DNA of 8,120 nt from a virus (taxonomy: Duplodnaviria; Heunggongvirae; Uroviricota; Caudoviricetes): IMG/VR virus record IMGVR_UViG_3300026224_000022, one strand, 5' to 3'. The notes under the pieces are model-generated. The model saw only the letters and a program-made list of their open reading frames with translations, was not told where the DNA came from and searched no databases. The position numbers were made by a program, and so were the translations under genes. Of the stretch, positions 2,280 through 8,120 are shown piece by piece (the first letter of the stretch is position 1; every line of letters starts with the position of its first letter).

Positions 2280-2383
2280 TTTTATATCAAAGATAACGAA
2301 CAGGCAGGACGCCCACGAAGTAGCCGCCGGTGGCGTATGAATGACCGGATGATTCGTTAAATACTATGTGTAAGAGAGCGCAA

Positions 2384-2587
2384 ATGAACCGTTATTTCAC
2401 ATGCTCGTTTTGTGGCGCAAACGAGCTGCAGGCAAAAAAAATCATCGCCAAAGGCGGAAAAGATGAAGTTGCTATCTGCTCTGAGTGCGTAGTCTTGTGT
2501 GTCGGGGCATTAATCAATATCAGCACAACTATTCAGTTCACACCAAATGAGAATGCGCCTTTAGATGCGCGGAAATCTGGAGGTTAA
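2384..2587 (+). CDS. Small protein (67 aa) resembling the ClpX N-terminal C4 zinc-binding domain
   Basis: ATG at 2384 with AGAGAG 5 nt upstream (track start 2366 has no SD). MNRYFTCSFCGANELQAKKIIAKGGKDEVAICSECVVLCVGAL matches the ClpX ZBD pattern as I recall it (CSFCG ... K/R-x-I-A ... IC-x-EC-V-x-LC), with all four Cys present. No AAA+ module follows. Confidence 0.75.
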   Translation: MNRYFTCSFCGANELQAKKIIAKGGKDEVAICSECVVLCVGALINISTTIQFTPNENAPLDARKSGG

Positions 2588-7122: not shown

Positions 7123-7158
7123 TTTTCCCGGGTGCAGCCGGTTTTGATGGAGAAAATT

Positions 7159-7440
7159 ATGAACACCTTGTTTTTACTGATGGCTGAATTCAATACCCCT
7201 AACATTGAACTCTCAGCAGTTAGCCAAAAGTACTTTGGCATGAGTCCAGCCACGGCAGAAGCAAAAGCAAACGCTTGTAAGTTGCCCGTTCCAACATATC
7301 GCATCGGCACATCACAAAAAGCAAAACGTTGCATCAATATTCAGGATCTTGCGGAATACATAGACAAAAGACGAGAAGAAGGACGTATCGAGTGGGAACA
7401 GGTCAGAACAAGCAAACAGAAGGGCAAAGAACATCACTAA
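7159..7440 (+). CDS. PrtN-family / excisionase-like small DNA-binding protein, 93 aa
   Basis: ATG at 7159 with GGAG (7149..7152) 6 nt upstream; the track start at 7132 is GTG. N-terminus MNTLFLLMAEF... and a basic C-terminal half resemble PrtN-type pyocin activator/excisionase-like proteins (by-eye, from memory). It is the last gene of the plus operon, in the same terminal position torI occupies in KplE1. Confidence 0.7.
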   Translation: MNTLFLLMAEFNTPNIELSAVSQKYFGMSPATAEAKANACKLPVPTYRIGTSQKAKRCINIQDLAEYIDKRREEGRIEWEQVRTSKQKGKEHH

Positions 7441-7446
7441 ATAAAA

Positions 7447-7468
7447 AACCCGCCTAAAGGCGGGTTTT
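7447..7468. terminator. Bidirectional rho-independent terminator
   Basis: AAAAAACCCGCC-TAAA-GGCGGGTTTT: 6-bp GC stem CCCGCC/GGCGGG (7449..7454 with 7459..7464) flanked by an A-run and a T-run. Lies between the convergent stops at 7440 (plus) and 7488 (minus). Confidence 0.75.
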
Positions 7469-7487
7469 CAAAAAGCACCAGCTATGA

Positions 7488-7661
7488 TCATGCTGCTTTG
7501 CGACGACGAAGCTTACCCTGCTGCTCTTTACCAGAGACAGTAGCGTGAGTGAACGCATTAGGAGCAGCCTTCATCAGAACTTCAACAGCAGCACCCATAC
7601 CTGCGAATGCTTTCATTGTGTCGAACTTAACCTGTGGCTTGGTTGCTTTTTGATCTTCCAT
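7488..7661 (-). CDS. Small protein, 57 aa, Ala/Lys-rich (absent from the ORF track, below its length cutoff)
   Basis: Hand translation of the minus strand: ATG at 7661..7659 with AGGAG 6 nt upstream; MEDQKATKPQVKFDTMKAFAGMGAAVEVLMKAAPNAFTHATVSGKEQQGKLRRRKAA; stop TGA at 7490..7488, followed by the bidirectional terminator. Confidence 0.6.
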   Translation of the reverse strand: MEDQKATKPQVKFDTMKAFAGMGAAVEVLMKAAPNAFTHATVSGKEQQGKLRRRKAA

Positions 7662-7700
7662 AGAAAACTCCTGAAGTTATACCGAAACAATTCCTGTTGT

Positions 7701-8120
7701 TTACTCATCATCAATAGATGATACGCAATATTTATTTTTAAATTTAAGGTTCTTTGGCGTAACTTCATCAGAGATATCAAAACCGTCCAGAATTCTATTG
7801 AATGTAGCTTCTGGCATATCATCATGAACAGAAATCTCACCCGATCGCTGCTTTCTAACCATGTTATCCACTCGCCAAATTATAGCTTCAGCGTAAACAA
7901 CATAACTTGGATGCTTGATAAAGCGATGATCACCAGAATTCAAGACGCAAGACGGATCGTGGGGGACACCATCCTTGATACTAGAAATATTAACAACTAA
8001 AACACAATAACAATCGTTAACGGGGTAATAAACAGGATCATTACAAATCACATGAAGATGATTGCATGGCCCAGTTGGGGCAAGCACAGTTCCTTTCCTG
8101 TATGGCTGATAATCCGTCAT
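7701..8120 (-). CDS. Hypothetical protein, 139 aa or longer, AT-rich gene
   Basis: ORF begins with ATG exactly at the window edge (8120..8118), so the true N-terminus and RBS may lie outside. Stop TAA at 7703..7701. AT-rich codon usage unlike the prophage core. Several Cys/His (GPCNHLH, NDCYC, DPSC); no family recognised. Confidence 0.6.
   Translation of the reverse strand: MTDYQPYRKGTVLAPTGPCNHLHVICNDPVYYPVNDCYCVLVVNISSIKDGVPHDPSCVLNSGDHRFIKHPSYVVYAEAIIWRVDNMVRKQRSGEISVHDDMPEATFNRILDGFDISDEVTPKNLKFKNKYCVSSIDDE

What the first reader, a model, noticed from the sequence alone, without database searches (positions are those of the whole stretch)
7488..7661. Unlisted 57-aa ORF with strong RBS and its own terminator, downstream of the AT-rich gene
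It is below the ORF-track cutoff but has a clean AGGAG-N6-ATG start, a plausible Ala/Lys-rich sequence with a basic C-terminal tail (KLRRRKAA), and ends 20 nt before a strong bidirectional terminator. It lies 39 nt downstream of the 139-aa gene on the same strand, so the two may form a two-gene cassette (for example a toxin/antitoxin-like or effector/partner pair).
Basis: seen in the sequence. Interest (0 to 1): 0.5.

Follow-up and report, generated by a model that had tools for sequence, protein, structure and literature searches.

The report
Orphaned small phage gene, wrong partner
The 57-codon reading frame is a real, already annotated small phage gene, but its true conserved partner is an acetyltransferase-like gene that this phage has lost, so here it looks like a drifting leftover and not a partner of the neighbouring 139-codon gene.

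Summary
A 57-aa ORF lies at 7488-7661 (-) with AGGAG-N6-ATG. It starts 39 nt after the 139-aa gene and ends 18 nt before a terminator hairpin. It is not new: three phage records and RefSeq annotate it as a hypothetical protein, and it matches phrog_2741 over its full length. The family evolves as a protein (dN/dS 0.07-0.31).

The proposed pairing with the 139-aa gene fails. Outside one E. coli lineage, the ORF follows a 177-184 aa gene with a predicted GNAT (acetyltransferase) fold. That pair sits at five different positions in phage genomes. The 139-aa gene instead follows a Panacea-domain antitoxin gene, with a 4-bp overlap. In the 21 relatives at 86% identity or less with sequence available downstream, the ORF is absent.

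In the window's lineage, a Panacea antitoxin-toxin cassette replaced the GNAT gene and its leader, up to about 10-13 nt before the ATG. The orphaned ORF then shows 15 nonsynonymous to 3 synonymous variants. With the GNAT gene present the count is 1 to 6, and the two neighbouring genes together show 11 to 35.

The likeliest role is a small, basic, mostly disordered partner of the acidic GNAT enzyme, acting like an antitoxin. This role is inferred, not shown. The ORF itself is ordinary; the GNAT module is mildly novel.

The parts
7488..7661 (-). 57-aa ORF (phrog_2741 family; identical to WQM42320 and WP_000390072). A small basic protein with one predicted helix (residues 15-32) and a tail ending in RRRKAA.
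   Evidence: ORF list. phrog_2741, E 8.4e-36, full length. Family dN/dS 0.07-0.31. AF2 predicts a single helix, mean pLDDT 63. pI 10.2, net charge +5.6.
7668..7672 (-). Shine-Dalgarno AGGAG, 6 nt before the ATG. This is the last element shared with the GNAT-context relatives.
   Evidence: Sequence. Alignment with mEp460.
7671..7674 (.). Recombination junction. Homology to the GNAT-context prophages (mEp460, O157:H7) ends here, 10-13 nt upstream of the ATG.
   Evidence: E. coli matches stop at query positions 231 or 234 of 7441-7700. Alignment. The att-side junction lies outside the window.
7444..7469 (-). Intrinsic terminator hairpin (AAAACCCGCC-TTTA-GGCGGGTTTT) plus a T run, shared with the convergent xis gene. 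It is part of the portable module.
   Evidence: Terminator scan. The same spacer and hairpin follow the ORF in Enterobacter, Pseudescherichia and Franconibacter, and partly in other loci. Rfam hits here all fall below gathering score and are anchored on the hairpin.
7470..7487 (-). Conserved 18-nt spacer (TCATAGCTGGTGCTTTTT) between the stop codon and the terminator stem.
   Evidence: Comparison of downstream sequences.
7701..8120 (-). 139-aa gene (phrog_19071), the putative toxin (PanT) of a Panacea antitoxin-toxin pair. The antitoxin gene lies just beyond the window end and overlaps this gene's start by 4 bp. It is not the ORF's evolutionary partner.
   Evidence: phrog_19071. Upstream 190-aa gene matches PF13274 SocA_Panacea, E 2.2e-19. 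The same pair occurs in Enterobacter, Proteus and Shewanella. Polymorphism 3 nonsynonymous to 13 synonymous.
7132..7440 (+). Convergent excisionase-like gene (PrtN family), the backbone gene whose 3' end faces the ORF.
   Evidence: PF11112, E 4e-23. Annotated as excisionase in mEp460.

Best explanation
The ORF is the small downstream gene of a portable two-gene phage accessory module.

**What is shown**
- In its native form the module consists of a 177-184 aa gene with a predicted GNAT (acyl-CoA N-acyltransferase) fold, a 93-196 nt leader, the 54-58 aa gene, and a terminator.
- In the window's E. coli lineage, a lambdoid prophage integrated in dusA, the GNAT gene and the whole leader were replaced by a Panacea antitoxin plus 139-aa toxin cassette.
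- Only the ribosome-binding site, the ORF and the terminator remain. The ORF is now the last reading frame of the Panacea operon's transcription unit.
- Deprived of its partner, it accumulates amino-acid changes at about the neutral rate.

**What is inferred**
- In the window the ORF is most likely a still-intact but functionless relic.
- In the native module, the small protein probably binds the strongly acidic GNAT enzyme through its helix and holds it in check, like an antitoxin or regulatory subunit. It is basic and mostly disordered, with one amphipathic helix and an invariant C-terminus of the type R-x-R-K-x-A-A.
- The C-terminal tail resembles ClpX degradation signals, which would make the protein short-lived.
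For: **It is a real gene family.**
- Full-length match to phrog_2741.
- 48 protein clusters across Enterobacterales, and 13 representatives in a profile search of 1.84 billion proteins.
- dN/dS 0.07-0.31, and length differences only in whole codons.

**Its partner is the GNAT-fold gene.**
- All 70 loci that carry the ORF without the 139-aa gene have a homologue of the 177-aa gene upstream.
- The two proteins diverge in parallel, to 53-67% and 58-65% identity.
- The pair occurs at five different phage positions: next to xis at the prophage end (E. coli, Salmonella), between antiterminator Q and holin (Hafnia, Serratia, Edwardsiella), inside tail and baseplate genes (Photorhabdus), and directly after the CI repressor (Brenneria).

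**The partner has a GNAT fold.**
- AF2 model: pLDDT 77, pTM 0.74.
- A motif-B-like YYxSFGF is conserved.

**The cassette was swapped.**
- Common flanks end at ...TTGGGAACC on the att side and resume at GGAGTTTTCTATG.
- GC content is 0.39 for the 139-aa gene against 0.48 for the ORF.

**Constraint is relaxed after loss of the partner** (sequences at least 94% identical).
- ORF in the Panacea context: 15 nonsynonymous to 3 synonymous variants. They hit residues that are invariant or nearly invariant across the family (A20, V26, P34, K50, R54, A57).
- ORF in the GNAT context: 1 to 6 (Fisher p = 0.003).
- The same Panacea-context loci: 139-aa gene 3 to 13, Panacea gene 8 to 22 (p = 3e-5 against the ORF).
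- Frameshifted 'MED...' alleles exist among the database clusters.

**Charges are complementary.** The GNAT protein carries -5 to -18 and the small protein +5.6 to +7.6.

**The structure fits a binding partner.** AF2 predicts one helix (15-32) with disordered tails.

**The tail resembles a degron.** Listed ClpX C-terminal signals are ssrA ...LAA, RseA ...VAA and MuA RRKKAI (PMC8138137).
Against: - No experiment shows binding, toxicity or neutralisation.
- The GNAT assignment rests on a predicted fold and one motif. None of 41 family members hits a Pfam GNAT model.
- Gene order (enzyme first) and the 93-196 nt gap are unusual for type II toxin-antitoxin pairs.
- The ORF is still intact in all 106 Panacea-context loci sampled, and it keeps a good ribosome-binding site. 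Some residual or new role is therefore not excluded.
- One distant homologue, P0104 (about 41% identity), stands alone at a prophage end with no GNAT gene within 3 kb.
- The polymorphism counts come from related, non-independent genomes and are small.
Confidence: 0.6

Rival explanations
1. One reading: the 57-aa ORF and the 139-aa gene are a functional two-gene cassette, either toxin-antitoxin or effector-partner.
For: - The genes share a strand, lie 39 nt apart with no terminator between them, and share one terminator at the end.
- Within E. coli, about 205 of the 208 genomes with the 139-aa gene have it next to the ORF.
Against: - That E. coli co-occurrence reflects one lineage with about 99-100% identical DNA.
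- All 22 relatives of the 139-aa gene at 86% identity or less lack the ORF.
- 357 of 562 E. coli genomes with the ORF lack the junction with the 139-aa gene.
- The 139-aa gene already has a canonical partner, a Panacea-domain gene overlapping it by 4 bp.
- In this context the ORF evolves neutrally while both Panacea-cassette genes are constrained.
- The Panacea survey found that accessory third genes are sporadic and probably play no general role (PMC8832971).
Confidence: 0.04
2. The ORF encodes an autonomous small protein, for example one that binds nucleic acid, ribosomes or membrane, or excludes other phages. It works without any fixed partner and is still functional in the window.
For: - It is intact in 106 of 106 sampled Panacea-context loci and keeps its AGGAG site and terminator.
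- In native modules it appears to have its own promoter-like element and leader.
- The distant homologue P0104 stands alone.
Against: - It shows 15 nonsynonymous to 3 synonymous variants, hitting residues that are invariant or nearly invariant across the family, once the GNAT gene is gone. With the GNAT gene the count is 1 to 6.
- It is strictly adjacent to the GNAT gene at five unrelated phage positions.
- It has no transmembrane segment: the best 19-residue hydropathy is 1.0, and charged residues sit in the helix.
Confidence: 0.14
3. The roles are reversed or enzymatic. Either the small protein is the harmful or active component and the GNAT enzyme acetylates it to neutralise or activate it (type VII-like toxin-antitoxin logic), or it is simply the enzyme's lysine-rich substrate.
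For: - The best structural matches of the GNAT model include N-terminal and lysine protein acetyltransferases such as NatD, Ard1, RimI and Naa50.
- The small protein is lysine-rich with disordered tails.
- The dependence of selection on the GNAT gene fits a substrate as well as it fits a binding partner.
Against: - If the peptide were toxic without the enzyme, a lineage that lost the GNAT gene but kept an intact, well-placed ORF should not have spread to about 205 complete genomes.
- Drift by amino-acid replacement, rather than rapid knock-out, fits loss of purpose better than toxicity.
- No member has been tested.
Confidence: 0.17

Closest known systems
GNAT/RHH type II toxin-antitoxin systems (AtaRT, TacAT, KacAT, ItaRT)
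   Same: - A GNAT-fold protein of about 175 aa is paired with a small partner on mobile elements.
- AtaT, KacT and TacT3 are among the best structural matches of the partner model.
- The partner is largely disordered with one helix. This is the way antitoxin C-termini bind these toxins (general knowledge, not tested here).
   Different: - The small protein has no RHH/DUF1778 domain and no Pfam hit.
- It lies downstream of the enzyme, not upstream, and is separated by a 93-196 nt leader.
- The GNAT protein matches no Pfam acetyltransferase model.
- Toxicity is untested.
- In the window the GNAT gene is absent altogether.
Panacea antitoxin-toxin (PanAT) modules and their sporadic accessory third genes (Kurata et al. 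2022, PMC8832971)
   Same: - The window's 139-aa gene and the Panacea gene upstream of it fit the PanAT architecture.
- In this lineage the ORF sits as a third gene in that operon.
   Different: - The ORF is not conserved with the pair: it is absent from all 22 relatives examined.
- It derives from another module.
- Neither accession appears in that paper's supplementary tables as held.
Toxin-first type II systems whose antitoxin has its own promoter (mqsRA, higBA, rnlAB)
   Same: Gene order is enzyme first, then the small partner. A promoter-like element lies in front of the second gene. The knowledge of these families is general and was not tested here.
   Different: There is no sequence or fold relationship, and the second gene here has no DNA-binding domain.
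Prophage accessory genes ('morons') at the att end, after cI, or between Q and the lysis genes (for example lambda rexAB, bor, and stx positions)
   Same: The module occupies exactly these classical accessory-gene slots and carries its own terminator.
   Different: No phenotype is known, and it matches no model of PADLOC-DB 2.0.0.

Membership tests
PHROG 2741 (phage protein family of unknown function) | Full-length match to the family profile | tested here: met
   E 8.4e-36, residues 1-57 aligned to profile positions 1-57 of 57.
GNAT/RHH type II toxin-antitoxin (AtaRT, TacAT, KacAT) | Adjacent GNAT-fold toxin gene | tested here: not met
GNAT/RHH type II toxin-antitoxin (AtaRT, TacAT, KacAT) | Antitoxin carries a ribbon-helix-helix / DUF1778 domain | tested here: not met
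   No Pfam or NCBIfam hit. AF2 predicts a single helix. No PDB sequence hit, even with a profile.
GNAT/RHH type II toxin-antitoxin (AtaRT, TacAT, KacAT) | Antitoxin gene upstream of the toxin gene and overlapping or abutting it | tested here: not met
   The small gene lies downstream, 93-196 nt from the GNAT stop codon.
GNAT/RHH type II toxin-antitoxin (AtaRT, TacAT, KacAT) | Toxicity of the GNAT protein and neutralisation by the partner | not testable with these tools
   Requires expression assays.
Panacea antitoxin-toxin (PanAT) module | Panacea-domain gene within 100 nt of a partner gene, conserved in at least two species (criteria in PMC8832971) | tested here: met
   This holds for the 139-aa gene. 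The upstream gene matches PF13274 at E 2.2e-19 with a 4-bp overlap. The same pair occurs in Enterobacter, Proteus and Shewanella.
Panacea antitoxin-toxin (PanAT) module | The 57-aa ORF as a conserved third component | tested here: not met
   It is absent from all 22 relatives of the 139-aa gene at 86% identity or less and evolves neutrally in this context.
Small hydrophobic type I toxins (hok/ldr-like) | A transmembrane helix in a peptide of fewer than 60 aa | tested here: not met
   Best 19-residue Kyte-Doolittle mean is 1.0. The helix holds K17, E27 and K31, and GRAVY is -0.55.
Known anti-phage defence systems (PADLOC-DB 2.0.0) | Match to any component profile | tested here: not met
   No hit for the ORF, the 139-aa protein, the Panacea protein or the GNAT-like protein.
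ClpXP substrates with a C-terminal degron | ClpX-dependent degradation through the C-terminal residues | not testable with these tools
   Resemblance only. The tail ...RRRKAA has an invariant last alanine, compared with ssrA LAA, RseA VAA and MuA RRKKAI.

The most novel reading that the evidence does not exclude
The GNAT-fold gene plus the 57-aa gene form an undescribed phage-borne toxin-antitoxin or abortive-infection module. Its antitoxin would be a minimal, non-DNA-binding helix protein that is degraded by ClpXP. It would be made from its own promoter, behind a leader that can mask the ribosome-binding site. The window would then hold a naturally orphaned antitoxin, left behind when a Panacea antitoxin-toxin cassette displaced the toxin gene.
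Probability: 0.3. Interest if true: 0.6.

Novelty: new variant of a known kind. Interest (0 to 1): 0.33.

Why it matters
For this window the result is mainly corrective. The small ORF is real but already annotated. Its neighbour is not its partner, and here it is probably a decaying remnant.

Three points have wider value.
- A conserved, mobile module of a GNAT-fold enzyme and a 57-aa protein occurs in enterobacterial prophages and has no Pfam, NCBIfam or PADLOC description. It sits in the slots where prophages keep defence and toxin-antitoxin genes.
- The E. coli lineage offers a natural experiment. Replacing one gene of the pair switched the other from purifying to neutral evolution. This is evidence of functional coupling obtained without any experiment.
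- The 139-aa gene can now be labelled as the candidate toxin of a Panacea antitoxin-toxin pair.

Tried and rejected
- **Family libraries.** Pfam, NCBIfam and PADLOC give nothing for the ORF.
- **PDB by sequence.** The single sequence and a family profile give nothing meaningful. The partner profile hits only HIV gp41 constructs over a GG-rich stretch, judged spurious.
- **Rfam.** All matches on 7300-8120 fall below gathering score and are anchored on the terminator hairpin. Three native-module loci gave no match. An RNA-gene reading was dropped.
- **Fold search of the 57-aa model.** Not attempted, because the model is too low in confidence (pLDDT 63, one helix).
- **Consensus folding of the native leader.** RNAalifold returned no structure because the alignment is too divergent. 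Single-sequence folds suggest a hairpin next to the ribosome-binding site, and pairing of that site itself, but this stays an observation.
- **Consensus promoter scan.** It does not flag the conserved TAGACG-N16-18-TAGGAT element, which scores 8 of 12, and it finds nothing above chance near the ORF.
- **The 939-aa hit P0103.** This hit from the profile search is a low-complexity repeat protein and was dismissed.
- **Literature.** Searches by accession number found no paper. The Panacea paper's supplements do not list these proteins.
- **A hidden GNAT remnant in the window.** None exists: only 39 nt lie between the genes, and they are unrelated to the native leader.

Full report
**1. Observation**

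The window is part of a lambdoid E. coli prophage.
- It is 100% identical over 7400-8120 to Escherichia phage SKA5 and 98.8% identical to phage Lys8385Vzw. Phage mEp460 matches only as far as the ORF's ribosome-binding site.
- On the minus strand there is an ATG at 7659-7661 preceded by AGGAG (7668-7672) and six bases. The frame runs for 57 codons to a TGA at 7488-7490.
- The 139-aa gene (7701-8120, -) ends 39 nt upstream.
- Eighteen bases after the stop codon begins a hairpin of 11 pairs (7444-7469) followed by a T run. It is the only minus-strand terminator-like site between the Panacea gene and xis.

A 57-aa ORF alone is not remarkable, since the window holds 62 ORFs of 40 aa or more. Conservation had to decide whether it is a gene.

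**2. It is a real gene, and a known one**

- The ORF is annotated as a hypothetical protein in three phage records and in RefSeq.
- It matches phrog_2741 from end to end, with E 8.4e-36.
- 562 of 5426 complete E. coli genomes carry it.
- The large protein database holds 48 clusters, all from Enterobacterales, down to 67% identity.
- A profile search of 1.84 billion representatives adds only a few more 53-61 aa relatives.
- Across 14 loci the frame is kept and length changes are whole codons. Nei-Gojobori dN/dS is 0.07-0.31.
- The invariant core is F-D-T-x2-A-F-x2-M-G-A-A-V-E-x-L-x-K-A-A-P. The tail is always Q-G-K/R-x-R-x-R/Q-K/R-x-A-A or close to it.
- Pfam, NCBIfam, PADLOC and PDB sequence searches give nothing.

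**3. The 139-aa gene is not its partner**

- In SKA5 and in integrated prophages, the 139-aa gene is preceded by a 190-aa gene that overlaps it by 4 bp. That gene carries the SocA/Panacea antitoxin domain (PF13274, E 2.2e-19).
- Homologues of the 139-aa protein in Enterobacter, Proteus and Shewanella, and in IMG/VR viral contigs, all have a Panacea gene with the same 4-bp overlap wherever upstream sequence is available.
- None of the 22 homologues at 86% identity or less has the 57-aa ORF. Twenty of them offer at least 2.3 kb of downstream sequence.
- This fits the architecture defined for Panacea antitoxin-toxin pairs. That survey found third genes to be sporadic accessories (PMC8832971).
- Conversely, 357 of the 562 E. 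coli genomes with the ORF lack the junction to the 139-aa gene.

**4. Its true partner is a GNAT-fold gene**

- In mEp460, in O157:H7, in Salmonella and in every other genus examined, the ORF follows a 177-184 aa gene (phrog_4350; mEp460 gp23) on the same strand, 93-196 nt upstream.
- All 70 loci that have the ORF without the 139-aa gene have this gene.
- The two proteins diverge in parallel.
- The pair is found at five positions:

| Position in the phage genome | Hosts |
|---|---|
| Next to xis, at the dusA-proximal prophage end | E. coli, Salmonella |
| Between antiterminator Q and the holin | Hafnia, Serratia, Edwardsiella |
| Same slot, behind a RelA/SpoT-type gene | Hafnia and related metagenome contigs |
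| Inside tail and baseplate genes | Photorhabdus |
| Directly after the CI repressor | Brenneria |

- The partner has no Pfam hit in any of 41 members.
- It keeps a motif-B-like YYxSFGF. The fold is clear, but the subfamily is not.

**5. How the window's arrangement arose**

- Alignment of the two contexts shows common sequence on the att side up to ...TTGGGAACC.
- Common sequence resumes at GGAGTTTTCTATG. Homology in E. coli genomes stops at window positions 7671-7674.
- Between these points, one lineage has the GNAT gene plus its leader. The other has the Panacea gene, the 139-aa gene and 39 unrelated bases.
- GC content also steps from 0.39 in the 139-aa gene to 0.48 in the ORF.
- The window's ORF therefore kept only its ribosome-binding site, coding sequence, spacer and terminator.
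- It lost a conserved promoter-like element (TAGACG-N16-18-TAGGAT, at the GNAT stop codon) and a structured leader.
- In the prophage, the cassette lies next to the host-derived 5' fragment of dusA and in the same orientation. This fits the known dusA-targeting integrases (PMC4482086, listed and known to me from its title and abstract only).

**6. The orphan is drifting**

The table counts variants among sequences at least 94% identical.

| Gene and context | Loci | Nonsynonymous | Synonymous |
|---|---|---|---|
| 57-aa ORF, Panacea context | 106 (18 alleles) | 15 | 3 |
| 57-aa ORF, GNAT context | 50 | 1 | 6 |
| 139-aa gene, Panacea context | 106 | 3 | 13 |
| Panacea gene, Panacea context | 71 | 8 | 22 |

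- In the Panacea context, the replacements include A20V/I, V26A, P34H, K50E, R54L, A56V and A57V.
- The two contexts of the ORF differ with Fisher p = 0.003. With singletons removed, p = 0.04.
- The ORF against its two neighbours combined, in the same loci, gives p = 3e-5.
- The nonsynonymous density of the ORF is 6-12 times that of its neighbours, while its synonymous density is not raised.
- All 106 copies are still intact. Frameshifted and truncated 'MED...' alleles do exist among the database clusters.
- Caveats: the genomes are related, the numbers are small, and some loci were fetched twice. Repeated fetching affects the locus counts but not the number of distinct variants.

**7. Mechanism (inferred)**

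- Selection on the small protein depends on the GNAT gene, so the two work together.
- The small protein has pI 10.2 and a net charge of +5.6 to +7.6. AF2 predicts one helix (residues 15-32) and disordered tails.
- The GNAT protein is acidic, at -5 to -18.
- I think direct binding most likely, with the small protein restraining the enzyme as an antitoxin does. Its gene order and apparent separate promoter recall toxin-first systems.
- The invariant basic tail ending in Ala-Ala resembles ClpX C-terminal degrons, which would make the protein labile. This resemblance is a lead, not a result.
- The reversed reading, in which the peptide is toxic or is the enzyme's substrate, is weakened by one fact. 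A lineage that lost the enzyme but kept the ORF spread to about 205 complete genomes.
- An autonomous function is weakened by the polymorphism pattern. It is kept alive by the intactness of the ORF and by one stand-alone distant homologue.

**8. Verdict**

- The window's copy is most likely an orphaned remnant.
- The native GNAT-plus-57-aa module is not described in any library searched here. It would be a new variant of GNAT toxin-antitoxin-like systems if the inferred mechanism holds.

Noticed in passing
window 7701-8120 (-) and beyond the window end (L001 6718-7290): The 139-aa gene is the downstream member of a Panacea-domain antitoxin plus toxin pair with a 4-bp overlap, conserved in Enterobacter, Proteus and Shewanella. 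The window is cut exactly at its start codon, which hides the antitoxin gene. The toxin family (phrog_19071) has no Pfam domain and no predicted mode of action.
   Followed up: partly
window 2366-2587 (+): A 73-aa ORF directly downstream of the cI/LexA-like repressor gene is a stand-alone ClpX C4 zinc-finger domain (PF06689, E 1.4e-10, above the gathering score). It is not annotated at the equivalent place in RefSeq NZ_AP022098, and SKA5 annotates the opposite strand there. It could be a decoy of the ClpX N-domain.
   Followed up: partly
L002 4263-4458 (-), with the equivalent leaders in L009-L031: The native 93-196 nt leader between the GNAT gene and the 57-aa gene carries three elements: a conserved promoter-like TAGACG-N16-18-TAGGAT (often TGnTAGGAT) at the GNAT stop codon, a CCAATCG/CGATTGG hairpin, and a hairpin next to the ribosome-binding site whose arms differ between genera. 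In several loci an upstream CCTYT stretch can pair with the ribosome-binding site. Consensus folding failed because the alignment is too divergent.
   Followed up: partly
L006 3847-4881 (ETEC H10407): A 344-aa CoiA-like gene is inserted between the 57-aa ORF and xis and replaces the terminator hairpin. Cargo therefore turns over on both sides of the ORF.
   Followed up: no
L014-L019 (Hafnia and metagenome contigs), upstream of the GNAT gene: A 319-352 aa RelA/SpoT-domain gene, of the toxic alarmone synthetase or CapRel-like type, sits immediately upstream of the GNAT plus 57-aa pair, between antiterminator Q and the holin. The pair thus lies among defence-type cargo.
   Followed up: no
window 7488-7661 (-), variants in L041-L197: Ten of the 15 nonsynonymous variants of the orphaned ORF are C>T changes on the coding strand, mostly Ala to Val. 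This mutational bias is unexplained.
   Followed up: no
L007 10503-10607 and L004 6096-6200: In lysogens, the host-derived 5' fragment of dusA points into the accessory cassette. Read-through from the dusA promoter could therefore express the cassette. A promoter-like site (TTGACC-17-TAAACT) also lies about 127 nt upstream of the Panacea gene, but it is not above chance.
   Followed up: no
L198 3001-3171: A distant 56-aa homologue (P0104, about 41% identity) stands alone after the lysis genes at a prophage end, with its own terminator and no GNAT gene within 3 kb.
   Followed up: partly
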